From an uncultured virus (IMG/VR IMGVR_UViG_3300027970_000018) (lineage: Duplodnaviria; Heunggongvirae; Uroviricota; Caudoviricetes): a stretch of 64,000 nucleotides of DNA. The translations under genes were made by a program, and so were the position numbers. The stretch is taken from the IMG/VR virus record IMGVR_UViG_3300027970_000018; one strand, 5' to 3'. The notes beneath the pieces were generated by a model. The model ran no database searches and had not been told where the DNA came from. It worked only from the letters and a program-made list of their open reading frames with translations. Of this stretch, positions 1 to 63,078 are shown one piece after another; positions within the stretch are counted from its first letter, which is position 1, and each line of letters starts with the position of its first letter.

Positions 1-3000
1 TAAATCCTTCTAACTCTTGTATCCCATGTTGTAATTCATGTAGAAGGGCTGTCTTAAAATCAATTGGTGTGATAGTAACTCCCTTGCTTTCAGTCTTTAG
101 AGGTATTAGTATCTCTTTTTTAGAAATATTGAACCACATAACATTTGAAATCTTAGGTATTCTTACTTTCCACTCTCTAATTTCAGGATATGAATCTAAA
201 ATTTTACTTTCTAATACGTCCTCTAAATTGTGTAGCCCGAAAGAAGGCATCCCGTTTTTTAATGTTCCATCTGGTATCTCGTACCTCCATAGCCCATCTA
301 CCCCAATCTCCCACCCAGTTGCAAAGAATATTTGCTCTTTCGTGAATTGGTTTTTGCCTTTCACCTTTCTACTCATCTCTCTTGCTACTCTTAGATTATC
401 CATTCGGAAAGTCGCTTCTTCGATTGCATCTAAGTTTGTTGCACCTATTTCTCCAATGATTTGGAAAGAAGGTATTTCACCATCAAGTTGATTTCCTCTG
501 GGGTTAGCATTACCGCCTTTTTCACTCTGTGTAAATGTATTTCTGGACACTGTTTGCGTATCTCCTCCTCTTCCTTTATTTGCGTCTGACATTTCTCCCA
601 TCTGTCTAGCAAATCCTGTGTTATTTCCACCTATTTTATTTATAAGTTCAGATAATTTTATTTGGAAGCTATCTTGTATATCTTGCGTATCTGAAAAAAG
701 TAATTCCCTTTTCTCTTGCAAAGTTAGGGCTGCCCTATCTTCAACATTCCTAGCTTGTACTTCTCCTTGCATTGCTGTGTATCCCATATTAGATATTTCT
801 TGAGCCCTATCAGAAGTATCTGCTTTTATGAATAGCTCTAAGTACGTTAACGCAAGATTATTACTCGCTGTTGTGTTTTCTTTAGCTAGTTTTACTCTTC
901 TGATATTTTCCTCAGTAGTTTCATTCCAATCGATTTTTGCGAAAGAGGTTGCGGCTCTGATAAAAGCACCTGGAGAGCCTCCCCCAGAGAATCCCTCAAA
1001 CTCTTGCACTGCGTGAGAAATCTCGTGGATGATTGATCTTTTAAGCTCTCTTTCTGAAAATCTAAAAGTTCTTGCTCCGCTTCTAAACTCAACCCCTTCC
1101 CCTGCGGATGCAGTTTTATATCTTGGTGAGGATAGGTTAACAGAGATTGTTTTATCATTATAATTGAAACTCGCTCTAACGTCTTTGTTTTGCTCATCGG
1201 TTGTGAATTTTACTTTTAAATCTGGAAATACAGTTGTAACTTCTTGGTTATCTAGTACATCTGACAGTTGGTATGTGGTCTCTATTTCAAAAGTACTATT
1301 TATTATCTCACCATCTGGTATTTCATACACCCACTGACCATTTACTTCTTCCCAATTAGTTTCTCTTTTTATCTCTCTTGGAGATGCTCCGTCCATTGAC
1401 ATATCTAATGCCTTATCTAACATGTCTAATCTGTTGCCTCCAAACTGTTCGTCTAAAGCTGCTGCAGTTTTAATTCCAGCTATCTGCGCTTGTAGTACTC
1501 CTTTAGGTGCTACATTAAATTTATGATACTCTTTCCAGAATGTTGCTTCGTCTTGGAATAGGTCTTTTCTTTTTTGTAATATAGATTGAGCTTGTTTATC
1601 TCCTTTAGATGCTCTTATGTCTAATACTTGTTGGAATACATGTATTAGTTCATGGAGAGTTGTTGTGTTGTTTAGTTTAGTTGGATCGAGGTATATCGAA
1701 CCATTTTTTTCAAATCCGAGGATGTTTCCTTGTGGTGTTTGGAGGAATTGGATTTTCTCTTCTATCGTGATTGCATTTTCATCAAATACTACGTAGTTGA
1801 ACCCTTTATTACTATTATCTTGTAATGTTGTTGTACCAGTTTTATACCTTGTTCCACTTATACCTGTGGAAAGTAAGTAAAGTGATGCGTCTTTGCTACT
1901 ACCTAGTTTTTGAGACAATATTTTATACAACTCTCCACCTTTTTTTGTTAAATCTGAGTCTGTTAGGTTTAACTCCGTATACTCAGGTGACATTCTTATT
2001 TTATCTCTATTACTTTCACTTAAAGGTTCACCCCAGTCTAACCAAGTGTAATCATCTCCTTCTTTTTTACCTTTATTTAAAGTGGCGTTATATATAATAC
2101 CTTTAGCGTATTTTATGCTGTCCTTGACAGGGATTAAATCCTCTACTATTGCATTTGCATATTTCATTAAATTGTCAGTACCGCCTAAATCTTCCTTTAA
2201 TCTTTTTTGCACCCCCTCTTGTGAAAGATATTTTTTTAATGCAGGATTGTTTACAGTTTTCTCAAAATCTTCTAAAGATTTTATAGGGTTCTTCCACCCA
2301 CCAAATCTTACAATATATGAGTATGCAATCCTCTTATTTTCTCCATCTTTTTTCTTAAAAATAAAAGAATCTAAAGGCTCTCCATTAATACTCAACTCTT
2401 TCTTTGCTAATTTTGTTGCGTACCTTTTTGCTATGCTTGGAAGGTCCGTGAAATATAGTCCCCAACCAAACAATAAATTTCCTTCCCCAGTGCCTATCTT
2501 TTCCGTTGAAAATTTATCAAATAAGTAGGGAGAACCGTGTAAACTTTGCACCATAGCATTCAAACTCTCAAATCCCATCTCCTTTATCTTGTCTGCGAAT
2601 ACTTTGGAATCTGCAATTACGTTGATACCTTTTTGTTTTATAAATTCAATTAGGTTTTGCTCGAATTTTATGTCGGATTTTTGTAGGTTTTCTTCATCAA
2701 CAACTCTATTTTCACCTAGAAGTCCTAGCGAACCATTTTTTAAGTCGTTTATGTCCACATCAAATGCAGATTCAAATGTATCTGGAAATGTTGTCTTATC
2801 CTTCAATCTGAATTCTACAGATGTGGCTTCTCTCTCACCTATCGAATTTCTATAAAGGTTATCTACATAAGCTAAAAAGTCTGGCTTACCATAGTATTTA
2901 CCTAAGTCTTCCATCATACTCTCAAAATCAGGGTAGTCTTGTTGTCTTATGACACCATTTGTTCTTCTTAAATAGTATTTGATGATGGGTGCAACACCAT

Positions 3001-5743
3001 TCCCGACCTTTCTATTAATTCCTTTGTTTTGCAAAAGGTGTTGAAATTCGTGGTTGACGACTGATTCGATTGTTTTGGAAAGAAATATTCCGCTAATTTG
3101 TCTGGATTCCAGCCCTCCCCTAATATTCTCTCTTCCATACTCTCCTCCTCGCATAATTGTTTTGGCAAACTCTTTTGAGCCTGTAATCTCAATTCTAATC
3201 TTCTCTCCGTTCTCGCCCTGAGTGGCAACCCCGACAACATTATTCTTTTCTTTTTCATTGAAAGTTATTTCTAAATCAATATTATTTACATTTATTCTTT
3301 TACCAAGGTCTTTAGTATCGAAGATATCTGTCAGAGGAAAAGATATTTTTCCGTCTCTGAATAACTCTTGAGAGAACTCTTCTATTTCTTGAGGAGTGAA
3401 AGGTATCAGTGTGATATCATCAATCTCTCTTCTCCATAAATTTCCTTTTATTCTGAACCACTTTGTTTGAGCGTAAATTTCCTCTTTTGATTTTCCTTGC
3501 TTCTCTAGGTTAATTGCTAATCGTAAAGCTTTATCATCTCCTTTAGTTAACTTATTACCATCAGAAATTATTTGGAAATTCGCTTGTACTTTCTTTGCGT
3601 ACTCAATTGATTTTTGTTTTACTGCTTGCACGAATTTTGATAGCGAACCATTTTTTTGATTGCGTTGTTCGATGTCATCCGGAGTGAGTTGTGATAGAGC
3701 TGCCATATCCTGCTTCTTCATTTGCTCAACTTGCTCCTTCGTATAATTTTCAGTTTCAACTTCTGTCTGATAATATAAATTATCTGTACTAGGTCTCACT
3801 TTCACAAAAACGCTTGTCTGAGGATTTTCCCCAACTTTTTGATACAATGTATCACCTATTCTTACAAAGCTGTTTACAGTTCGTGGAATCGACATTAAAT
3901 TCCCCACAATATTCTTAACCCCACTATACTCCCCAACGGTTTCAGGAAAATTGATTACAGTCAATACATTCGTAGCATCTTGTTTAAATTCCTTTGCAAT
4001 GTACTTCTTACCAGTTGAATCTTTTTTCAAAGCCAAGTAATCCATTAACTCCTCGTAGAATTCAATATTTTTTAAATCAGAGATGTCATTTCCAATAGTA
4101 ATATCCCTATTGTTAATTGAAATTTTTGATAATGTGTTTCGATATACAGCAGAGTTTTTTAACTTCTCTTTTAAGATGTAATTATAGAAGTCTGAAATGA
4201 ATCCCGCTTTCAAATAATCTACATTCGTAACTACTCCCGCCAATGATTTCATGTCCTCGTTTATCTTACGAGTGTTGTCCATTGTTGGATGTCCGAATAT
4301 TACTTGATACAAAGATGCTCTTTCGTTGTAGAAATCTAATCCTGTTTTTCTTGAGTTGATAAATTTCTCAATATCTTTTAATGTGTTCTCTTTTTGGTTT
4401 ACGTCTTTTGTTAGGTTGAATCGCTCAGGTATTTCTACCAAACCATTTTTTACCTGCTGGTACACCGCTTCGTACAAATCCGTAAGGCTGTCCGTAGTGC
4501 GTATTTTGTGGTACAACCCGTCTCCAACTTTTATCAAACCGTGTTGCTCAAATAACTGTTGGTCGGATTTCTCTGAATGCATTCTTACAATAGTAAGTCC
4601 GTCCAATTCCTTTGGAAGTTTCTCTACTGATTTAGTTGCGGTCTTACCAAAAACCCCGTCATAAACATCACTAAATGCTTGGATATTTTGGTTCGTTGGG
4701 TTCTTAACCATATCATTCACCGCATTCAATACTCGAAGTATTGTGGGTTGATCCGTAGTCACTTCATTAAGTCCTACAATGTCAATATTTTTATCAGCAA
4801 GATCCGATTCAATTTCTTTGATAACTTCTGCAACATCTTCTTTACTTTCCTCCCAAATGTTCTCAGGAATATTCTCAATGTAAAGAATTTCCGCTTCAAT
4901 ATCTAATTGGTCGAAATCTGTTGAAATCGTATTTTTTATTAAAGAAAAAGTATCTGTAATGTCTGCCACCAACGTATTGTCTCGCTCTTCAACAACAGGT
5001 ATTTTTCGTATGTTTTTAAATCTGGAAATGAATTTTTCTGCAAAAGTCTCATCTTCATTGAATTTAGTTATTAAATCTGTATATGGTAATTCTTGAACCG
5101 CTTGTCTTATTTCTTGCTCCGATTGAGGATTTTCTACTGCAGCAATTACTTCTTGATAAACTGCTTCCATTGGGATTACCTCAGATGCACCAAAAATATT
5201 TCTTACAGATGGATTTCTGTACTCTGAACTTGGAGTAGAAGTTTCAATACTAAAGTCGTTGACTAGAGCATCTGCTTCCATTCGCATAATCAAATCACCG
5301 ATTCTTGCTAAGTTAATATTCTTTATGTCCTCAGATGTGAACAAACCAGAGTTTATTGCTTTTTCTGGATAAAAGTTTGGAATGTTTCCTTCGTAGAAAA
5401 TCTCTTTTAGTTTTGCCGCCATCTCTGATAACCTACCAACATTATGGTCCGCCATCATCTGCTTCACTTCAAATGTTTCAGAAGGAGTTAATGTACCAAT
5501 TAATTTCTTATTGGAGTTGTAGTATTGAATAACCGATTCTAAACTAACATCGTCAACTGTACCTTTCTTTCCAATACTTTCTACAAAGTCTGGAGTACTT
5601 GCAACAGCCCACATTTCTAAAGCGTCTTTCTCGTTTTTAGTATACGCAAGTGCTTGTTGATACAATGAAGAAGGAAATCCATTTTCATTCGTCACTAATA
5701 AGGTTCCATCGGCTTTTCTGCCTATTCTACATTTTAATCCCAT
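1..5743 (-). CDS. Giant polyvalent cargo/ejection protein, partial (>1914 aa, runs off the left edge): 3x LPD23-like + zincin modules, an extra HExxH, ART-PolyVal-like domain
   Basis: Not in ORF track, consistent with no stop inside the window. ATG at 5743-5741 overlaps the upstream TAA (TAATG). Manual translation starts MGLKCRIGRKADGTLLVTNENGFPSSLYQQAL. In-frame HEFQH (3038-3052), HELIH (~1637-1655), HEISH (1013-1027), HELQH (26-40); HGSPYLFDKF..GTGEG..FGWGLYFT (~2445-2539) ... NYVVFD (1781-1798). Confidence 0.88.
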   Translation of the reverse strand, partial: MGLKCRIGRKADGTLLVTNENGFPSSLYQQALAYTKNEKDALEMWAVASTPDFVESIGKKGTVDDVSLESVIQYYNSNKKLIGTLTPSETFEVKQMMADHNVGRLSEMAAKLKEIFYEGNIPNFYPEKAINSGLFTSEDIKNINLARIGDLIMRMEADALVNDFSIETSTPSSEYRNPSVRNIFGASEVIPMEAVYQEVIAAVENPQSEQEIRQAVQELPYTDLITKFNEDETFAEKFISRFKNIRKIPVVEERDNTLVADITDTFSLIKNTISTDFDQLDIEAEILYIENIPENIWEESKEDVAEVIKEIESDLADKNIDIVGLNEVTTDQPTILRVLNAVNDMVKNPTNQNIQAFSDVYDGVFGKTATKSVEKLPKELDGLTIVRMHSEKSDQQLFEQHGLIKVGDGLYHKIRTTDSLTDLYEAVYQQVKNGLVEIPERFNLTKDVNQKENTLKDIEKFINSRKTGLDFYNERASLYQVIFGHPTMDNTRKINEDMKSLAGVVTNVDYLKAGFISDFYNYILKEKLKNSAVYRNTLSKISINNRDITIGNDISDLKNIEFYEELMDYLALKKDSTGKKYIAKEFKQDATNVLTVINFPETVGEYSGVKNIVGNLMSIPRTVNSFVRIGDTLYQKVGENPQTSVFVKVRPSTDNLYYQTEVETENYTKEQVEQMKKQDMAALSQLTPDDIEQRNQKNGSLSKFVQAVKQKSIEYAKKVQANFQIISDGNKLTKGDDKALRLAINLEKQGKSKEEIYAQTKWFRIKGNLWRREIDDITLIPFTPQEIEEFSQELFRDGKISFPLTDIFDTKDLGKRINVNNIDLEITFNEKEKNNVVGVATQGENGEKIRIEITGSKEFAKTIMRGGEYGRENIRGGLESRQISGIFLSKTIESVVNHEFQHLLQNKGINRKVGNGVAPIIKYYLRRTNGVIRQQDYPDFESMMEDLGKYYGKPDFLAYVDNLYRNSIGEREATSVEFRLKDKTTFPDTFESAFDVDINDLKNGSLGLLGENRVVDEENLQKSDIKFEQNLIEFIKQKGINVIADSKVFADKIKEMGFESLNAMVQSLHGSPYLFDKFSTEKIGTGEGNLLFGWGLYFTDLPSIAKRYATKLAKKELSINGEPLDSFIFKKKDGENKRIAYSYIVRFGGWKNPIKSLEDFEKTVNNPALKKYLSQEGVQKRLKEDLGGTDNLMKYANAIVEDLIPVKDSIKYAKGIIYNATLNKGKKEGDDYTWLDWGEPLSESNRDKIRMSPEYTELNLTDSDLTKKGGELYKILSQKLGSSKDASLYLLSTGISGTRYKTGTTTLQDNSNKGFNYVVFDENAITIEEKIQFLQTPQGNILGFEKNGSIYLDPTKLNNTTTLHELIHVFQQVLDIRASKGDKQAQSILQKRKDLFQDEATFWKEYHKFNVAPKGVLQAQIAGIKTAAALDEQFGGNRLDMLDKALDMSMDGASPREIKRETNWEEVNGQWVYEIPDGEIINSTFEIETTYQLSDVLDNQEVTTVFPDLKVKFTTDEQNKDVRASFNYNDKTISVNLSSPRYKTASAGEGVEFRSGARTFRFSERELKRSIIHEISHAVQEFEGFSGGGSPGAFIRAATSFAKIDWNETTEENIRRVKLAKENTTASNNLALTYLELFIKADTSDRAQEISNMGYTAMQGEVQARNVEDRAALTLQEKRELLFSDTQDIQDSFQIKLSELINKIGGNNTGFARQMGEMSDANKGRGGDTQTVSRNTFTQSEKGGNANPRGNQLDGEIPSFQIIGEIGATNLDAIEEATFRMDNLRVAREMSRKVKGKNQFTKEQIFFATGWEIGVDGLWRYEIPDGTLKNGMPSFGLHNLEDVLESKILDSYPEIREWKVRIPKISNVMWFNISKKEILIPLKTESKGVTITPIDFKTALLHELQHGIQELEGF

Positions 5744-27528: not shown

Positions 27529-27536
27529 CAAATGTA
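27529..27536 (-). promoter_or_regulatory. Bacteroidota-type -7 promoter (TACATTTG), 4 nt before ATG
   Basis: Exact TAnnTTTG downstream of a terminator-like hairpin. Confidence 0.6.
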
Positions 27537-27580
27537 ATAACTTAAAAACCTTTCTCAAAAATAATAATACTAAAAGACAA

Positions 27581-27608
27581 TTCCCCAAAATCTTTCGACA
27601 ATGGGGAA
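27581..27608 (-). terminator. Probable intrinsic terminator
   Basis: TTCCCCA..TGGGGAA hairpin followed by T-rich sequence on the minus strand, after the 27645 gene. Confidence 0.5.
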
Positions 27609-32344: not shown

Positions 32345-32352
32345 CAAAAATA
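32345..32352 (-). promoter_or_regulatory. Bacteroidota-type promoter (TATTTTTG, TTTG at 32373-32376)
   Basis: -7 and -33 elements spaced 20 nt. Confidence 0.6.
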
Positions 32353-32392
32353 CTTGGTCGTTATCAACTTTGCAAAAATGTTGTATTTGTGA

Positions 32393-52455: not shown

Positions 52456-52571
52456 ATTTTATATAAAATTTCTAATAAAAAGTTTGTAGTATCAAAAAAT
52501 ATGTTACATTTGTACTGTTTATTTTCATAAATGTTATGGTTTACTTACTTGTGACTAATTAAGTAGAAAGG

Positions 52572-52598
52572 AAAGAGGGCTTCGGCCCTCTTTTTTTT
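52572..52598 (+). terminator. Intrinsic terminator (copy 2)
   Basis: AAAGAGGGC TTCG GCCCTCTTTTTTTT; near-identical to copy 1. Confidence 0.85.
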
Positions 52599-52631
52599 GT
52601 GGTCAAAATTTTGTAGTTAAAAATTAATTAT

Positions 52632-52639
52632 TAAATTTG
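52632..52639 (+). promoter_or_regulatory. Bacteroidota-type promoter (TAAATTTG, TTTG at 52610-52613)
   Basis: Consensus match, 4 nt before ATG 52644. Confidence 0.65.
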
Positions 52640-52643
52640 CCAG

Positions 52644-53450
52644 ATGTCACAAAGTACTTACACCATACTTGCTATCCTAATAGCTTTAAAAAGAAGCAGA
52701 AGAAACTCTGTTATCTTCAAGCGTTGTAGTACAAAATTGGCTAATAAGCTGTGCATATCTCCAAACACTTTAAAGAAATATATTGCTATCGCTGTTGAAT
52801 CAGGATATATTATTGAATTGGAGGGTCGGTATAAAATAATACCTTTTAGAGATATTCTAAAATCTATATCAAAAGATAATAAAACATTTTACTTTGGTTC
52901 CCATGCGATTCTTCGTGATGGGCGAACCAATGTGAAACACATAAAGCGAGTACTTTTACGATTTGCTGTAAATGATATGATCATTCGACCACAATCATTT
53001 AAGATTGAAATGAAAGTACAAGAGCTGGATTTAATTAATAAACTGACGAGCACTGGGAAAAAGCAACCCTCTCTTAGTAAATACGAATACCAACAGGCTA
53101 AACGTATTATTAAGAAAGGAAGAAACAATGTGGCTACGGCAGTTAAATTAAGTAAATCGATTAACAGAAATATAATAACCTCAGCAAGACACGCTGCAAA
53201 GAAACTTGGAGTAGGTATTACCTTAGCGAACAAAACATTGAATGATGGTGCTAAAGTATACACTCGAAAGGAAGAGTGTTTTTTCTTGAAAGGAGCAAAT
53301 CTGTTCACCGTTGATAAAGCGAGAGCAGATTACCCAGGAGCGAAAGTAATACCCCTTCCTTACACAGATTCTGTCAAAGTGTGTTTCGGTTCCACTCTCT
53401 TCCCTTGGAGTTTAGAAAATGACCCCATAATCTCCCGCTATCAGCGGTAA
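52644..53450 (+). CDS. Basic double-HTH protein, putative replication initiator
   Basis: STKLANKLCISPNTLKKYI..ESGYI and SARHAAKKLGVGITLANKTL HTH-like motifs; followed by AT-rich intergenic DNA. Confidence 0.5.
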   Translation: MSQSTYTILAILIALKRSRRNSVIFKRCSTKLANKLCISPNTLKKYIAIAVESGYIIELEGRYKIIPFRDILKSISKDNKTFYFGSHAILRDGRTNVKHIKRVLLRFAVNDMIIRPQSFKIEMKVQELDLINKLTSTGKKQPSLSKYEYQQAKRIIKKGRNNVATAVKLSKSINRNIITSARHAAKKLGVGITLANKTLNDGAKVYTRKEECFFLKGANLFTVDKARADYPGAKVIPLPYTDSVKVCFGSTLFPWSLENDPIISRYQR

Positions 53451-53696
53451 AGATTTTATCCCCTTATAATTTATAAATTTTTCTATTAAAGTTTAATTAA
53501 AAAAGAAAAATAAAAAATAAATTAAAAAAGAAAGATAAAAAAGGAAGTTGCTTTTAGGATGTTCTTTTTCTGATTCCAATTAAATTTGGTAAGTGGCAAT
53601 CTATGTCAAAATCTTTATTTTACTACGTTTTTACAAAAACTTATAATATTTTTACAATTTTTCATACATTTTTTGCAATTATATCAAATTATGTAT

Positions 53697-53704
53697 TACT
53701 TTTG
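53697..53704 (+). promoter_or_regulatory. Bacteroidota-type promoter (TACTTTTG, TTTG at 53672-53675) driving the RNA cluster
   Basis: Consensus match 4 nt before tRNA-like element 1. Confidence 0.65.
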
Positions 53705-53708
53705 TCTT

Positions 53709-53825
53709 GAAGTTGTGGTGAAACGGTAGACACACACCTTTTAGGAGGTAAAAGCGGAGTATGAAGTATAAACATACCGTACAGTTAACAAGTACGACAT
53801 GGAGGTTCAAGTCCTCCCAGCTTCA
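53709..53825 (+). tRNA. Non-canonical tRNA-Leu(TAG)-like RNA with two-hairpin variable region
   Basis: Acceptor GAAGTTG/CAGCTTC, D-arm GTG-AAACGGTAGA-CAC, ACCT-TTTAGG-AGGT, T-arm GGAGG-TTCAAGT-CCTCC, discriminator A. Confidence 0.7.
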
Positions 53826-53829
53826 CAAA

Positions 53830-53913
53830 AAAAACAGGGAGCTATGAAGAGCGGGTATAGCTTTAAATCAATATCGGCATTTAATAGTGATAAGGAAACT
53901 TGACCCTGTTTTT
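53830..53913 (+). ncRNA. Structured RNA element (multi-branch) between tRNA-like genes
   Basis: AAAAACAGGG/CCCTGTTTTT closing stem enclosing AGCTAT/ATAGCT and TCAA-TATC/GATA-TTGA helices. Confidence 0.4.
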
Positions 53914-53965
53914 ATGAAACTTACGGTGATGTTAAAATCAATAGTATTGGTTTACAACCGTTGGA

Positions 53966-54071
53966 GAAGTGATAGTTTATCTCGGTTAAAACATTGAAGA
54001 TTATAGCGTGTGTACAACGTGGCCGAAAGAGACTAATCTTCAAAAACCCTGTTCGAGTCGGGGTCACTTTG
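53966..54071 (+). tRNA. tRNA-like RNA with extended anticodon arm and 30-nt insert (no assignable anticodon)
   Basis: Acceptor GAAGTGA/TCACTTT, D-arm GTTT..AAAC, 10-bp TTGAAGATTA/TAATCTTCAA, T-arm CCCTG-TTCGAGT-CGGGG. Confidence 0.7.
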
Positions 54072-54092
54072 CAAAGAGATTAAAAATATACT

Positions 54093-54365
54093 ATGGAAAC
54101 ACTTTCAGACCTTATAGAAGTTGTAAAAGGAAATATAGAAGATACTAAGGAAAAGATTAAAGAATTAGAAGATGCCTTGGAAGAAGAGTTGTTTGAAGGT
54201 GCTTTTTATAAATCTAGTAATCAGTCTAAAGATAAAAATGATTTTTACATAAGATATCTGCGAACTGGGATTTTGATACAAAATAATATAAAAGAAATGC
54301 TTATAAACTTTTTAGGTGAAATTTCCTCAGAATATGTAGTAGATGATATTAATACAAAACAATGA
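54093..54365 (+). CDS. Hypothetical protein
   Basis: 90-aa ORF with A-rich initiation region. Confidence 0.6.
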   Translation: METLSDLIEVVKGNIEDTKEKIKELEDALEEELFEGAFYKSSNQSKDKNDFYIRYLRTGILIQNNIKEMLINFLGEISSEYVVDDINTKQ

Positions 54366-54520
54366 AAACCAAAGATTATGAAGTACTAAAGAAGTTAATA
54401 ACTTCCCAAGAGTTACCTAATGACGTAATATCAATTGCAAAGATAATCAAAGCAAAGAGTGTTAAGAAAGTCATTAAAATAGCAAACAAAGAATTAAAAA
54501 GTAAAAATAAAAACCAGTGA
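54362..54520 (+). CDS. Small basic hypothetical protein (52 aa)
   Basis: Manual translation MKTKDYEVLKKL...; ATGA-coupled, fills the gap. Confidence 0.5.
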   Translation: MKTKDYEVLKKLITSQELPNDVISIAKIIKAKSVKKVIKIANKELKSKNKNQ

Positions 54521-54522
54521 AA

Positions 54523-55443
54523 ATGAATACAGAAAGAGTAAACGAGCTTATAGAAAATTTCAGAGAGATTCGAGAAAATATAAAAAATAATCTTGAGGGT
54601 ATTAAAAAAGAACTTGAGTTAGAAGTTAATGAGTTTTTTAGCTTAGATATTACAAAAGAAATTATCGATAAGGCTAAAAACAGAAAAGATATATCACCAC
54701 TTGTTAATTCATTGGCTGGTTGGGTGAGGAGAGGAAAAAGAAATAAAAATGCCTTAGCAGATGAGTTTGTGTCCTCTTTGTTTGGAGACAAAGATATTCC
54801 GAAAGACCTACTAGATGACCTCAAAGATTCTTATTTTAAGTATTTATCTAAAGTGGAAGATGACATATTTTTTCCGGATAAAAAAGAAGTTGAAATCCCA
54901 TCTAAGACACAAACACTAAAACCCATTTCAAAAGGGGTGTGTTTTGATATGCACAGTTTTTGTAAGGAATACGAGACTCGGCAAAACAAAGAGGGAGATA
55001 AAAAAGAGTTTGAGTTCTATACAACCACAGGTACGGTAAAGACATTTATGGATGAATTAGGTCTACTTCCAATAGAAGGAAGTAAGTATAAAACAGCTTG
55101 TGAAAGCAAAAAAAGCCTTTTAGAATCTTTATTTGAAGAAAATATAATAAGATCACGTAGTTTTAGAAAAGAAAAGGTAGCTCTTATATCTGCAGTATTG
55201 GATACATGGAGAAATTATCATAAAATGTATGTTGAGAATGTGGCCGAACCCTTTGAAGAAGCCTATGGTTTGTTACTAAACAAACACGGAAATCTGGAGG
55301 TTTTTAAACAAGAGGATATAGAAGTAGGCTATCCTTTTCCAACAAGGAGATTAGCAGAGATATTTTTAAGAAATAATAAAACCAACATACTATTATACAC
55401 TAGAGAATTAACAGAATGGAAGAAGGAAAACAATTTGTCTTAA
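54523..55443 (+). CDS. Hypothetical protein
   Basis: ~306-aa ORF; start trimmed to ATG 54523. Confidence 0.65.
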   Translation: MNTERVNELIENFREIRENIKNNLEGIKKELELEVNEFFSLDITKEIIDKAKNRKDISPLVNSLAGWVRRGKRNKNALADEFVSSLFGDKDIPKDLLDDLKDSYFKYLSKVEDDIFFPDKKEVEIPSKTQTLKPISKGVCFDMHSFCKEYETRQNKEGDKKEFEFYTTTGTVKTFMDELGLLPIEGSKYKTACESKKSLLESLFEENIIRSRSFRKEKVALISAVLDTWRNYHKMYVENVAEPFEEAYGLLLNKHGNLEVFKQEDIEVGYPFPTRRLAEIFLRNNKTNILLYTRELTEWKKENNLS

Positions 55444-55709
55444 AATACAAGTCAGCAGTAGATACTGGTAGATTTGGTAAGGAGTTAAAACTTTCCCCTA
55501 AATTGAAAGTAGAAATATCAGAAGGTGGTATTAGTATAGAGACTATTGGTAAGACAGTGTCTATTACGTTGGATATTGATAACGAACCAATTTTTATCTG
55601 TATGTCCGAATCGGCATGGGAGAAACACAATAACGGCTTCGATGTAAATTACCAAACAATTCAAAATCACATAAAAGAAATAAAAAATGGCAAAAGAAAC
55701 AGAGGTTAA
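55416..55709 (+). CDS. Hypothetical protein
   Basis: 97-aa ORF overlapping both neighbours. Confidence 0.55.
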   Translation: MEEGKQFVLKYKSAVDTGRFGKELKLSPKLKVEISEGGISIETIGKTVSITLDIDNEPIFICMSESAWEKHNNGFDVNYQTIQNHIKEIKNGKRNRG

Positions 55710-57546
55710 AAAAGATCCATTCTTAGCAGCTCTAGAGGAGGTAAATAAGAAGTATGGTGCAGAAGCAGTACAAGATGGCGATGCTATATTAGATATTGAG
55801 AGGCTAAAAACAGGATCACTTTCACTTGACCTTGCTTTAGGTGGTGGTTGGGGGGTAGGTAAAATAGCAGAGCTTTATGGACCAGAATCTTGCTTGTCGG
55901 GTGATACTTTTATCCCCTACGCCTTGAGAAAAGAGTGTGGAAAACTTAGAAATAAAAAAGGTGGTACTTTAAAATTATTATTTGAGAAGTTTAATAAGTT
56001 GCCCCTAACAAAAAGACATGCTAGGTTTATAAATCCATTAGAAGGGGATTTTTACACAGTTCCTTGTATAAATGAAATGAATAGGATAGAACATATAAAA
56101 ATAAAAGATGTTGTGTATAATGGAGTGAAACCTGTTTACAATGTACTGCTTGAAAATGGGATGCAGATAAAAGCTACGTTAGATCACAAGTTTTATGATG
56201 GAAGTAAATATACAATGTTAGGGAACTTAGTTGCTGGAGATATTGTACACATACATAATAATACAACATTTAAAGTTGATGAGTATCAATATAAGTACTA
56301 TAAAGAGGTTTTTGTAAAGTACCATCCATCTTGGAAACAGAAAATTGTAAATGGTTGCACATATTATAGAAACCATGTATCGAGAGCTATATTTGAAGCA
56401 AACATGAATGGTTATGATTATAAGGACTTTGTGAAATTACTTAACAGTGGTCCAAGCGAAGAGGCTTCAAAATTACTTACAATACCCGAAAAACATCATA
56501 TACACCACATTGATGAGGACATCACAAATAATTCACTAGAAAATTTATGTTTAATATCTTCTTCTGACCACGGTAAAATACACGCTAACGAAAGGCACAA
56601 TAACCTGAGATTTATATCTGTCCCAAAACAAATAGTTTCTATTGATTACGTAGGGGAAGAAGAAGTTTTTGATATAAAATGCGAAGACCCTTACCACAAT
56701 TATGTAGCAAATGGTTTTATTGTCCATAATTGCGGTAAAACAACTTTGTGTATAAGCTCTGCAGTTGAAGCCCAAAAGGCATTTCCAGATAAAAAAGTAT
56801 TGATTATAGATGCGGAACACGCACTTGACAGAAGATATTGCAAGAACTTGGGATTAGATATGAAAAATGTAGTGATTTCTCAACCAGATAATGGTGAGCA
56901 AGGGTTAGAGATTTTAGAGACATTTATTTCATCTGGCAGAATTAGTATTGCAATTATAGACTCAATAGCTGCATTAACACCAAAGTCAGAGATTGAAGGT
57001 GAGATGGGTGATTCTCAAATGGGGAAACACGCAAGACTTATGTCTCAAGCTATGCGAAAATTAACTGGTATTGCAAATAAGACAAAAACAACTCTTTTGT
57101 TTACAAACCAATTACGTTCTAAGCTTGGTGTTATGTTTGGAAACCCAGAGACAACAACCGGTGGGAACGCAATGAAGTTTTACGCATCTACACGAGTTGA
57201 TATGAGAAAAAAGCAAGGTGATAAAGTTGATGAAGTAGTTCAGAATATAGTTTCCTCTTGTAAAGTAGTTAAAAACAAGTTAGCACCACCTTTTCAAAAA
57301 TGTGAATTTACGATTGAGTTTGGAGAAGGTATTGATAAGGCAAGTGAGATTCTTACACTTGGAGTTGCAACAAGACTTATAGAGAGAGGCGGATCATGGT
57401 TCTCTTACCAAGGAGTTAAGATTGGAAATGGCATCACAGCAACAAAAGATATCCTAAGAGACAACCCACAGTTAATGGAAGAAATTGAAGATATAATCAG
57501 AAAAAACATAAGCGTATATGACGACATCGAACAAATTGCCGAATAA
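55687..57546 (+). CDS. recA: RecA recombinase containing an intein
   Basis: TGSLSLDLALGGG..ELYGPES | CGKTT..IDAEHALD..SQPDNGEQGLEI..DSIAALTPK.EIEGEMGD..ARLMSQAMRKL..ETTTGGNAMKFYAS; spliced length 339 aa. Confidence 0.97.
   Translation: MAKETEVKKDPFLAALEEVNKKYGAEAVQDGDAILDIERLKTGSLSLDLALGGGWGVGKIAELYGPESCLSGDTFIPYALRKECGKLRNKKGGTLKLLFEKFNKLPLTKRHARFINPLEGDFYTVPCINEMNRIEHIKIKDVVYNGVKPVYNVLLENGMQIKATLDHKFYDGSKYTMLGNLVAGDIVHIHNNTTFKVDEYQYKYYKEVFVKYHPSWKQKIVNGCTYYRNHVSRAIFEANMNGYDYKDFVKLLNSGPSEEASKLLTIPEKHHIHHIDEDITNNSLENLCLISSSDHGKIHANERHNNLRFISVPKQIVSIDYVGEEEVFDIKCEDPYHNYVANGFIVHNCGKTTLCISSAVEAQKAFPDKKVLIIDAEHALDRRYCKNLGLDMKNVVISQPDNGEQGLEILETFISSGRISIAIIDSIAALTPKSEIEGEMGDSQMGKHARLMSQAMRKLTGIANKTKTTLLFTNQLRSKLGVMFGNPETTTGGNAMKFYASTRVDMRKKQGDKVDEVVQNIVSSCKVVKNKLAPPFQKCEFTIEFGEGIDKASEILTLGVATRLIERGGSWFSYQGVKIGNGITATKDILRDNPQLMEEIEDIIRKNISVYDDIEQIAE
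55891..56730 (+). mobile_element. Intein (280 aa) with HNH homing endonuclease
   Basis: N-terminal CLSGDT, block B IKATLDHKF, HHIDEDITNNSLENL..H HNH motif, C-terminal VFDI..HNYVANGFIVHN|C. Confidence 0.93.
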
Positions 57547-60885: not shown

Positions 60886-61470
60886 ATGAAAGTACTTAGA
60901 AGTAATATTTTAATAGAAGAGATCGGATTTGCACCAACAAAAGCGGATGTAAAAGGTTTATCAAGTACTTGGGGAATATCTGAAAAATTGAGGGGACATA
61001 ATCCAATGAGAATTGGTGTTGTAAAATCAATCGGTACAGATACAACCACGGTACAAGAAGGAGATGTAGTTTTATATCTATCTCTGTATTTGATGAATAT
61101 ACCTGGACTTCCAATAAATCAGTTTATGATTTACGAAGGAAATTTGATGGGCAGATACGATGGAATCGAAAACAAAAACGGAACAATAAAAATGGAAAGA
61201 ATTAAATTTAATCCTTTATCGGATAGAATTATCGTCAAAAAAGACGAACCTGCTAAACCTAAAAATGGTTTGGTAGTTACGGATACAACAACCAGCAACA
61301 AACCACTTACAGGGACAATTGTAAGAGTAAGTGATTTCCAAGTAGAAAGACCGCTTGTAGTAAAAGAAGGTGATAGAATTATGTTCACTAAAGTTGCAGG
61401 AATGGAAATCGAGTTGGAAGAAGGTAAGTTCATAATCATGCGTGAAGCAGATGTAATCGGAATTTTTTAA
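60886..61470 (+). CDS. groES: Co-chaperonin with two tandem GroES domains
   Basis: Domain 2: PLSDRIIVK..GTIV.V..VKEGDRIMFTK.AG.EI..IMREADVIG; domain 1: VLRSNILIE..GVVKSIG..VQEGDVVLY..IYEGNLMG. Confidence 0.85.
   Translation: MKVLRSNILIEEIGFAPTKADVKGLSSTWGISEKLRGHNPMRIGVVKSIGTDTTTVQEGDVVLYLSLYLMNIPGLPINQFMIYEGNLMGRYDGIENKNGTIKMERIKFNPLSDRIIVKKDEPAKPKNGLVVTDTTTSNKPLTGTIVRVSDFQVERPLVVKEGDRIMFTKVAGMEIELEEGKFIIMREADVIGIF

Positions 61471-63078
<1,608 letters not shown>

What the first reader, a model, noticed from the sequence alone, without database searches (positions are those of the whole stretch)
53966..54071. tRNA-like RNA whose anticodon loop is replaced by a 10-bp stem plus 30-nt insert
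Seen: canonical acceptor, D and T arms, but the anticodon stem is a perfect 10 bp (TTGAAGATTA/TAATCTTCAA) capped by TAGCGTGTGTACAACGTGGCCGAAAGAGAC, which contains a GCGT-[GTGTACA]-ACGT mini-hairpin and a C-GAAA-G tetraloop. The insert is far too short for a group I intron and shows no obvious bulge-helix-bulge. Inference: with the first element, a pair of tRNA scaffolds carrying foreign RNA modules, possibly an undescribed phage tRNA-mimic system.
Basis: partly seen in the sequence, partly recalled or inferred. Interest (0 to 1): 0.72.

Follow-up and report, generated by a model that had tools for sequence, protein, structure and literature searches.

The report
Phage tRNA body with blocked anticodon
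A freshwater phage carries a gene with every part of a normal tRNA except that about 31 extra bases bury the anticodon in a long stem, so the RNA either needs an unknown kind of splicing or, more likely, works as a tRNA look-alike that reads no codons.

Summary
Window 53966-54071 is a tRNA body with a 7-bp acceptor stem, a D arm with GG, and a T arm with a TTCGAGT loop. Its anticodon stem runs on as a perfect 10-bp helix (53994-54003 / 54034-54043) capped by 30 nt.

- **Detection.** ARAGORN finds it only in intron mode, with a 31-nt insert, and made 0 calls in 2.56 Mb of shuffled sequence. Rfam gives nothing there.
- **Not an assembly artefact.** An identical 6-kb contig and a roughly 6%-diverged relative from another study both carry the insert.
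- **Not a known intron type.** The insert is not a group I intron and has no bulge-helix-bulge motif. No RNA ligase or splicing nuclease gene lies in the window.
- **The neighbour** (53709-53825) derives from tRNA-Leu(UAG) but has a 6-nt anticodon loop and a roughly 50-nt two-hairpin variable region.
- **Related phages** conserve another tRNA-like RNA whose anticodon arm ends in a 4-nt loop.

Best reading (about 0.4): a transcribed, non-decoding tRNA mimic. Rivals are a protein-spliced mini-intron giving tRNA-Ile(UAU) (about 0.28) and a decaying relic (about 0.25). No RNA data exist.

The closest case in print is the 'enigmatic' tRNA introns of Lak megaphages. This scan has noted similar hairpin mini-introns and tRNA mimics on other DNA.

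The parts
53672..53704 (+). Bacteroidota-type promoter-like motif (TTTG, 21 nt, TAnnTTTG) ending 4 nt before element 1. It probably drives both tRNA-like genes.
   Evidence: 13 matches in the window against 5.92 +/- 2.21 in 100 shuffles (0 shuffles reach 13), and this is one of them. The consensus itself is recalled, not taken from a call. In two relatives the similarity breaks right after 53704.
53709..53825 (+). Element 1, the neighbour: a tRNA-Leu(UAG)-derived body with a 6-nt anticodon loop and a roughly 50-nt two-hairpin variable region.
   Evidence: Rfam RF00005, 36.2 bits. The ARAGORN intron-mode alternative has 2 mismatches in the anticodon stem. A contig in run X12 replaces 53736-53799 by 26 letters that spell a canonical Leu(UAG) anticodon arm and a short variable arm.
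53966..53972 (+). Acceptor stem, 5' strand.
   Evidence: ARAGORN drawing.
53975..53992 (+). D arm: 4-bp stem, 10-nt loop with GG.
   Evidence: ARAGORN drawing; sequence.
53994..54003 (+). 5' arm of the 10-bp helix. It comprises the pair T53994-A54043, the anticodon stem 53995-53999, and the first four loop bases 54000-54003, which include every candidate anticodon position.
   Evidence: I15.
54004..54033 (+). 30-nt cap of the helix, with a predicted 4-bp mini-hairpin (54006-54009 / 54017-54020) and a 7-nt loop; the rest is unpaired. ARAGORN's 31-nt 'intron' is 54003-54033. The canonical 37/38 reading puts it at 54006-54036.
   Evidence: Unique in the window and in the fetched loci.
54034..54043 (+). 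3' arm of the 10-bp helix.
   Evidence: I15.
54047..54063 (+). T arm: 5-bp stem with one G.U, loop TTCGAGT.
54064..54071 (+). Acceptor stem 3' strand and discriminator G. No CCA is encoded.

Best explanation
Element 2 is a gene for a non-decoding, tRNA-shaped RNA (a tRNA mimic) that descends from a real phage tRNA gene. Proposed course (all steps inferred; only the anatomy is shown): it is transcribed rightward from the Bacteroidota-type promoter at 53672-53704, with element 1 in this phage and directly in one relative. Because the acceptor/T-arm helix and the D/T elbow are intact, host RNase P and the 3'-end enzymes trim it like a tRNA, and CCA is added. It then acts through its tRNA body. 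It could serve as a competitor or decoy for proteins that recognise tRNA shape, such as tRNA-cleaving defence nucleases or tRNA-modifying or charging enzymes. Or, more modestly, it could serve as an RNase P/Z processing signal ahead of the downstream genes.
For: (1) The tRNA body is intact and far beyond chance, but no 7-nt anticodon loop exists in the primary sequence. (2) Its neighbour under the same promoter comes from tRNA-Leu(UAG), since a relative has the canonical form. Yet that neighbour has a 6-nt loop and a roughly 50-nt variable region, and no clean intron reading repairs it. A contig in X13 carries the same D-arm-to-first-hairpin segment on a different acceptor and T stem, with a still shorter loop and a different second hairpin. 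So at least one of the pair is not a normal decoder. (3) Related phages G001, G011 and G012 share a 111-112-nt tRNA-like RNA in which a 6-bp hairpin with a 4-nt loop stands in place of the anticodon arm. G001 and G012 are 93% alike over this RNA where the other aligned pieces are 69-84% alike, and the three aligned copies differ at few columns. The clade therefore keeps non-decoding tRNA-like RNAs. (4) No RNA ligase, splicing endonuclease or other RNA-processing family was found among the 56 window proteins scanned. (5) A relative about 6% diverged has lost element 1 and two small ORFs but keeps element 2, insert included, fused to the same promoter. (6) A promoter-like motif lies in the right place.
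Against: No RNA data: no listed run is RNA, so transcription, end processing and the absence of splicing are all unshown. The conserved mimic of the relatives is an analogy, not a homologue: nhmmer found no match to element 2 in 3 relatives' genomes or in 80 loci. Divergence of the element-2 stretch from the X13 relative (10 of 163 letters plus 1 indel) is no lower than in the intergenic stretch (12 of 165) or the coding stretch upstream (35 of 543), so purifying selection is not shown. Where those 10 changes fall was not displayed. ARAGORN's intron mode does give a formally acceptable tRNA. No target protein is known. The 308-aa downstream gene has no relatives.
Confidence: 0.4

Rival explanations
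1. Protein-spliced mini-intron. The 31 nt are cut out after transcription by an endonuclease and the halves are rejoined by an RNA ligase (host or phage). This yields a decoding tRNA, most likely tRNA-Ile(UAU) if the cut is at the canonical 37/38 site. The helix that masks the anticodon is the recognition structure.
For: ARAGORN intron mode calls it at default thresholds. Every way of removing 31 contiguous bases that keeps U33 also leaves A37. The resulting anticodons are CUA, UUA, UAA and UAU (three of the six cut positions give UAU), and the canonical 37/38 position gives UAU (worked out). ATA is a common codon here (389 of 18,002 codons, 32% of Ile). The neighbour's ancestral anticodon UAG reads CTA (180 codons), so both fit the usual A-ending-codon supplement of AT-rich phages. 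Lak megaphages of Prevotella have tRNA genes with 23-141-nt 'enigmatic' inserts at this position (PMC6784885; abstract, passages and Table S6 read). RtcB is present in the Bacteroides control genome.
Against: No bulge-helix-bulge: both candidate cut sites lie inside, or at the end of, an uninterrupted helix. No ligase or endonuclease family was found in the window. Among 5 relatives, 1 of 5 has an Rnl2-type ligase and 0 of 5 have RtcB. A double-strand cut with the usual 2-nt 3' overhang followed by direct sealing would leave a 6- or 8-nt loop, never 7 (inference from the pairing register). The spliced loop would have a Watson-Crick A32-U38 pair. Discriminator G is not what I recall for bacterial tRNA-Ile. 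The suppressor readings are unwanted: TAA ends 38 of 48 genes, and the frames do not lengthen when a stop codon is read as sense. The neighbour cannot be rescued by any such splice.
Confidence: 0.28
2. Decaying relic. A former tRNA gene was hit by an insertion, for example a replication template switch that lengthened the anticodon hairpin. It is now junk awaiting deletion.
For: The locus is in flux. One relative lacks element 1 and the two small ORFs, and another lacks everything from 53705 to 55252. In run X10 the contigs of depth about 7 stop at 53763 and resume at 54056, with only a depth-2.2 piece between. That pattern is consistent with a commoner alternative allele in the same lake or with a local drop in coverage. 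Divergence from the X13 relative is no lower than in the flanks, and there is an indel in the cap. Perfect 10-bp hairpins arise at chance frequency here. A note from this scan on another virus ascribes small hairpin inserts, one of them in a tRNA gene, to copying errors (not checked here).
Against: All tRNA tertiary landmarks are still intact: U8, A14, G18G19, G53-C61, the T-loop. It sits right behind a promoter-like motif in two diverged genomes. Phage genomes of this density (93% covered by open frames of 100 aa or more) seldom keep junk. The neighbour's first insert hairpin lies in a 64-nt stretch that recurs on a second tRNA body in X13 with 4 substitutions and 3 gaps.
Confidence: 0.25
3. 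Self-cleaving or self-splicing RNA, tmRNA-like RNA or Y-RNA-like RNA of a catalogued family.
For: None beyond the tRNA-like shape.
Against: Rfam 15 at E<=10 over 53600-54200 gives no ribozyme, intron, tmRNA or YrlA match on this element. ARAGORN's tmRNA search finds none. There is no G3.U70. The 5' and 3' ends are at the acceptor stem, not permuted.
Confidence: 0.03

Closest known systems
'Enigmatic' introns in tRNA genes of Lak megaphages (Devoto et al. 2019, PMC6784885)
   Same: Both are phages of Bacteroidota-type hosts. In both, an otherwise good tRNA body is interrupted in the anticodon loop by an insert with no assignable intron class, and the mechanism is unknown. Table S6 lists inserts of 23 to 141 nt.
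   Different: Most Lak inserts are 79-141 nt, several contain a T-loop-like segment, and they recur identically across cohorts. This insert is 31 nt, unique, and forms a perfect extension of the anticodon stem. I ran no sequence comparison with the Lak inserts.
Archaeal and eukaryal protein-spliced tRNA introns (bulge-helix-bulge; review PMC4090602, seen in a search listing only)
   Same: Short insert. It is compatible with position 37/38, and the intron pairs with anticodon-loop bases.
   Different: No 3-nt bulges flanking a 4-bp helix. The virus has bacterial-type RecA, GroES and GroEL genes. No splicing endonuclease gene is in the window.
Group I introns in bacterial and phage tRNA anticodon loops
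   Same: Same insertion region of the tRNA.
   Different: 31 nt is far below any group I core, and Rfam gives no match.
tRNA-like domain RNAs that do not decode (YrlA / bacterial and phage Y RNAs, Rfam RF02553; tmRNA)
   Same: A tRNA elbow and acceptor-like helix are used for something other than decoding.
   Different: YrlA is circularly permuted with a Ro-binding stem, and tmRNA lacks a D stem and carries a tag frame. Here the order of parts is that of a normal tRNA with open acceptor ends. No Rfam hit and no tmRNA call.
Conserved 111-112-nt tRNA-like RNA of related phages G001, G011 and G012
   Same: Same phage clade (UvsX about 60% identical, shared gene order). A tRNA body whose anticodon arm cannot present an anticodon, lying near ordinary tRNA genes.
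   Different: There is no sequence similarity to element 2. There the arm is a 6-bp hairpin with a 4-nt loop plus a long variable hairpin. Here it is a 10-bp helix with a 30-nt cap.

Membership tests
Canonical elongator tRNA (Rfam RF00005) | 7-bp acceptor stem, D arm with G18G19, T arm with a T54-psi55-C56-type loop and G53-C61 | tested here: met
   ARAGORN drawing; sequence.
Canonical elongator tRNA (Rfam RF00005) | 5-bp anticodon stem closed by a 7-nt loop with U33 and a free anticodon | tested here: not met
   38-40 nt lie between the stem strands, and loop positions 32-35 are paired in a 10-bp helix.
Canonical elongator tRNA (Rfam RF00005) | Reaches the family's gathering score, or a default tRNA-finder call | tested here: not met
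   No RF00005 match on 53966-54071 even at E<=10. ARAGORN default finds 0 genes.
Group I intron-bearing tRNA gene | Intron with a P1-P9 catalytic core, usually 200 nt or more, matching Rfam group I models | tested here: not met
   The insert is 31 nt, and there is no intron family match at E<=10.
Bulge-helix-bulge (protein-spliced) tRNA intron | Two 3-nt bulges separated by a 4-bp helix at the splice sites | tested here: not met
   Continuous perfect 10-bp helix. The constrained fold shows no bulges.
Bulge-helix-bulge (protein-spliced) tRNA intron | Splicing endonuclease and ligase available | tested here: inconclusive
   None among the 56 window proteins. About a third or more of the phage genome is outside the window, and the host is unknown.
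Lak-type 'enigmatic' phage tRNA intron | Unclassifiable insert in the anticodon loop of an otherwise good phage tRNA gene | tested here: met
   The definition is descriptive only (PMC6784885).
Lak-type 'enigmatic' phage tRNA intron | Sequence or structure relatedness to the Lak inserts | not tested
   No alignment was run.
Lak-type 'enigmatic' phage tRNA intron | Insert removed from the RNA | not testable with these tools
   No RNA run is listed for this phage. The Lak passages I read report no RNA evidence of removal either.
tmRNA | G3.U70, no D stem, tag reading frame, detected by the ARAGORN tmRNA search | tested here: not met
   ARAGORN -m finds 0 tmRNA. Pair 3-70 is A-U.
YrlA / Y RNA | Permuted tRNA-like domain with a Ro-binding stem formed by the 5' and 3' ends | tested here: not met
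   Normal order of parts. No RF02553 match at E<=10.

The most novel reading that the evidence does not exclude
The 31 nt are a true mini-intron that is neither self-splicing nor of the bulge-helix-bulge type. A helix-recognising endonuclease and an RNA ligase remove it in a bacterial host and release a tRNA-Ile(UAU). That would be a tRNA-splicing route not described for bacteria or their viruses, possibly shared with the roughly 30-nt hairpin inserts this scan noted in other lake-phage tRNA genes and with the Lak megaphage introns. Keeping the anticodon masked until splicing could also hide the tRNA from anticodon-cutting defence nucleases.
Probability: 0.25. Interest if true: 0.85.

Novelty: new variant of a known kind. 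Interest (0 to 1): 0.5.

Why it matters
Short inserts in phage tRNA genes that cannot splice themselves have been in print since 2019 without a mechanism, and tRNA is now known as a main battleground between phages and bacterial defences. This element is a small, clean case. It has an intact tRNA body, a 31-nt insert, an anticodon locked in a 10-bp helix and a plausible promoter, and it could be tested directly by expression in a Bacteroidota host. Either outcome is useful. Removal of the insert would reveal a new bacterial tRNA-splicing route. A stable unspliced RNA would add a normal-topology, anticodon-masked member to the growing set of phage tRNA mimics.

Tried and rejected
- **Relatives by DNA or protein.**
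  - blastn against 50,697 phage records: no match.
  - IMG/VR scans with the 308-aa and 268-aa neighbour proteins: no relatives.
  - IMG/VR exact patterns from the T arm, the D arm and element 1's hairpin: 0 hits each.
  - Metagenome pattern scan: only L081, 100% identical to the window over 6,087 nt.
  - blastn-short and nhmmer against the 80 UvsX loci, and nhmmer against 3 whole relatives' genomes: nothing.
- **Host mimicry by the insert** (for example a CRISPR repeat). A 20-mer scan of 185,579 species genomes gave 1 hit, inside GC-rich sequence of a Pirellulaceae MAG. That matches the roughly 1 hit expected by chance and was rejected.
- **Isotype from the body.** Comparison with 39 distinct tRNAs of related phages gave no informative similarity.
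- **Neighbour gene function.** The 308-aa protein has only itself among 5.8 billion proteins, and the Atlas gave no usable hit.
- **Suppressor reading.** Rejected as a need of the phage: there is no recoding in the window.
- **RNA evidence.** No RNA holder is listed.
- **RNA ligase family PF09511.** It rang in 0 of 5 relatives, but its control rang nowhere, so this result is uninformative.
- **Whole-record search of L081's contig.** No genome is held for the window either.
- **A 23-nt inverted look-alike of two joined parts of the element at 53411-53433** (I4 and I7). Judged to be chance after counting the possible junctions.
- **The unconstrained fold is not special.** z = -1.15, and 30 of 200 shuffles fold as well.
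- **Literature.** Searches found no paper on short, non-group-I inserts in phage tRNA genes other than PMC6784885, and none on tRNA-shaped phage decoys with a masked anticodon.

Full report
**What the window is.** The 64-kb window is part of a tailed phage with a crAss-like layout.
- A long leftward block holds the terminase, portal, a 2,228-aa virion protein, crAss-type tail ring proteins, holin and amidase.
- From about 51.5 kb a rightward block holds a RecA/UvsX gene interrupted by an intein with an HNH nuclease, then GroES and GroEL.
- The terminase is only 31-36% identical to its best named relatives: seven Cellulophaga phage records, phage csAssE-Sib and two others (10 records in all).
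- Public runs that hold the stretch are lake, aquatic and groundwater DNA metagenomes.
- A Bacteroidota-type promoter motif is enriched, with 13 matches against 5.92 +/- 2.21 in shuffles. Several copies lie just upstream of genes in the right orientation, which points to a Bacteroidota host. The consensus itself is recalled.
- The standard genetic code fits. Open frames of 100 aa or more cover 93% of the window, the largest frames do not grow when a stop codon is read as sense, and 48 genes end in TAA 38, TGA 6 and TAG 4 times.

**The observation.** At 53966-54071 the sequence has the following parts:
- a 7-bp acceptor stem;
- U8 and A14;
- a 4-bp D stem with a 10-nt loop containing GG;
- a 5-bp T stem with loop TTCGAGT and the G53-C61 pair;
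- discriminator G, with no encoded CCA.

Between the D and T arms the repeat finder reports a perfect 10-bp inverted repeat, 53994-54003 against 54034-54043, with 30 nt between the arms (I15).

Standard detection fails. Default ARAGORN finds no tRNA in the whole window. Rfam's tRNA model hits only the neighbour at 53709-53825, even at E<=10.

The same run makes no other call in the window apart from the neighbour. It makes 0 calls in 40 dinucleotide-preserving shuffles, 2.56 Mb in all. In about 790 kb of other phage loci only 2 of its calls carry an intron.

A perfect 10-bp hairpin alone is at chance frequency: 7 in the window against 5.8 +/- 2.7 in shuffles. The significance lies in the tRNA body and in the helix being in register with its anticodon stem.

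The unconstrained optimum is -24.3 and is not unusual for the composition (z = -1.15).

**Not an artefact.**
- A JGI metagenome contig of 97.7 kb is 100% identical over 6,087 nt around the element.
- In a run from another study and year (X13), one 739-nt contig of a relative covers 53913-54075 without a break. It has 10 substitutions and one extra T behind 54025, inside the supposed GAAA loop.

So the insert is present in an independent assembly of a diverged genome.

**What the relatives show about the locus.**
- The X13 contig matches 53540-53704, skips 53705-53912 (element 1 and the hairpin after it), and matches 53913-54075 (a 53-nt leader plus element 2). It then skips 54076-54522 (two small ORFs) and continues into the 308-aa gene.
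- An X12 contig matches up to 53704 and resumes at 55253, with 137 other letters between.
- Both breaks begin right after the promoter-like motif at 53672-53704. The promoter is therefore kept while what follows is exchanged in cassettes.
- Another X12 record replaces 53736-53799 of element 1 by 26 letters. These spell a 5-bp anticodon stem, a 7-nt loop with anticodon UAG and an 11-nt variable arm, which is a normal class II tRNA-Leu(UAG).
- Element 1 of the window is thus a derivative of that tRNA. Its loop has 6 nt, and its variable region has about 50 nt in two hairpins.
- A further X13 contig carries the D arm, anticodon arm and first hairpin of element 1 (4 substitutions, 3 gaps, loop even shorter). 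There it sits on a body with a different acceptor and T stem and a different second hairpin.
- Divergence of the element-2 stretch from X13 (10 of 163) is about the same as in the promoter region (12 of 165) and in the upstream gene (35 of 543). Constraint on element 2 is therefore not shown. The table did not list where the 10 changes fall.

**What the insert is not.**
- No Rfam family (group I or II introns, small ribozymes, tmRNA, YrlA) matches at E<=10.
- Both possible splice sites lie in or at the end of an unbroken helix, so there is no bulge-helix-bulge.
- The insert is unique in the window at up to 3 mismatches and occurs in no other fetched locus except the same phage.
- A 20-mer of it has only a chance match among 185,579 species genomes.

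**If it were spliced.** With ARAGORN's stem register, taking out 31 contiguous bases can leave a 7-nt loop with U33 and A37 at six cut positions. The anticodons are CUA, UUA (ARAGORN's choice), UAA, and UAU at three of the positions. The canonical 37/38 cut gives UAU (worked out).
- Suppressor readings make no sense for a phage that ends 38 of 48 genes in TAA and shows no recoding.
- UAA (Leu) would need a class II body.
- UAU (Ile, codon ATA: 389 of 18,002 codons) is the sensible product. It pairs nicely with the neighbour's ancestral UAG (CTA: 180 codons).

Several points count against splicing:
- No RNA ligase or endonuclease family appears among the 56 window proteins scanned.
- In five related records, an Rnl2-type ligase is present in 1 of 5 and RtcB in 0 of 5. 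The PF09511 search was uninformative because its control was silent.
- A double-strand cut with a 2-nt 3' overhang followed by direct sealing would give a 6- or 8-nt loop, not 7 (inference).
- The product would have a Watson-Crick 32-38 pair and a G discriminator.

**Evidence from the wider clade.** Phages with about 60% identical UvsX and the same terminase-UvsX-GroEL order have no homologue of element 2. Five of the six whole contigs examined nonetheless carry one odd tRNA-like gene beside ordinary tRNA genes: G001, G002, G003, G011 and G012. G015 has 25 calls, two of them with inserts of 2 and 6 nt.

The copies in G001, G011 and G012 are one conserved RNA of 111-112 nt:
- It has acceptor, D and T arms, a 6-bp hairpin with a 4-nt loop where the anticodon arm should be, and a long variable hairpin.
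- G001 and G012 are 93% alike over this RNA, where the other aligned pieces are 69-84% alike. The three aligned copies differ at only a few columns.
- With three near-identical sequences there is no compensatory change (0 of 33 pairs). The support is conservation, not covariation.

This shows that the clade keeps tRNA-shaped RNAs that cannot decode.

**Verdict.** Three readings remain open.

1. **Non-decoding tRNA mimic (about 0.4).** It would be transcribed from the promoter at 53672-53704, trimmed like a tRNA, and act through its body. I favour it for four reasons. The neighbour under the same promoter cannot be a normal decoder. The clade conserves another anticodon-less tRNA-like RNA. No splicing machinery is in sight. 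A diverged relative kept element 2 while shedding its surroundings.
2. **Protein-dependent mini-intron giving tRNA-Ile(UAU) (about 0.28).**
3. **Decaying relic of an insertion (about 0.25).**

No RNA run holds this phage, so none of the three is tested.

**Comparison with what is known.** The nearest case in print is the 'enigmatic' tRNA introns of Lak megaphages (PMC6784885). I read its abstract, the passages found and Table S6. It lists inserts of 23-141 nt in the anticodon loops of phage tRNA genes, with no mechanism given. Five literature searches found no other paper on such inserts and none on anticodon-masked phage tRNA decoys. One listing, seen as an abstract start only (PMC13096335), reports a defence system that cuts the variable loop of tRNA-Tyr. 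That is relevant background for element 1.

This scan has noted look-alikes on other DNA: hairpin mini-introns of 28-32 nt in phage tRNA-Thr genes, and several anticodon-less tRNA mimics. These are unchecked AI notes. I used them as leads only. None shares sequence with this element.

I file the finding as a new variant of a known but unexplained kind.

Noticed in passing
window 53709-53825: Element 1 is a tRNA-Leu(UAG) derivative with a 6-nt anticodon loop and a roughly 50-nt two-hairpin variable region. A groundwater relative has the canonical tRNA in its place, and an aquatic relative has the same first hairpin on a different tRNA body.
   Followed up: partly
window 53705-53912, 54076-54522, 53705-55252: Relatives differ from the window by clean cassette-like gaps or replacements that start right after the promoter-like motif and end at element or gene borders. 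In run X10 the contigs of depth about 7 stop at 53763 and resume at 54056, which is consistent with a commoner alternative allele in the same lake or with a local drop in coverage.
   Followed up: partly
window 55687-57546: The RecA/UvsX gene is interrupted by an intein with an HNH endonuclease: Pfam RecA in two stretches, Intein_splicing and HNH_3. Relatives at about 60% identity have UvsX matches of about 970 nt, that is, without the intein.
   Followed up: no
window, 13 sites, e.g. 27529-27589 (-), 32345-32376 (-), 52483-52639 (+), 53672-53704 (+): The Bacteroidota-type promoter motif is enriched (13 against 5.9 expected) and mostly sits upstream of genes, which suggests a Bacteroidota host.
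   Followed up: partly
L112:9250-9360, L126:12671-12782, L133:17449-17560 (-): A conserved 111-112-nt tRNA-like RNA in three related phages has a 4-nt-loop hairpin instead of an anticodon arm. It is far better conserved than its flanks.
   Followed up: partly
L118:1500-1603: A related phage (G010) has a class II tRNA body with a good 5-bp anticodon stem and a 7-nt loop whose middle triplet is TCA, plus a roughly 35-nt variable arm. It may be a UGA-reading tRNA. ARAGORN parses it differently.
   Followed up: no
L093:1399-1498 and L091:1689-1863: Further odd tRNA-like genes next to normal tRNA genes in relatives G003 (100 nt) and G002 (175 nt). Their acceptor, D and T arms are good, but the anticodon arms are poor.
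   Followed up: no
window 60886-63078 and 2-5743: The phage encodes GroES and GroEL. It also has a giant polyvalent protein, cut off by the window's end, with LPD23 repeats and a weak ADP-ribosyltransferase match.
   Followed up: no
window 53830-53913: A perfect 10-bp inverted repeat (64 nt apart) followed by a T-run lies between the two tRNA-like genes. It may be a terminator or a processing structure, and it is deleted together with element 1 in the X13 relative.
   Followed up: no
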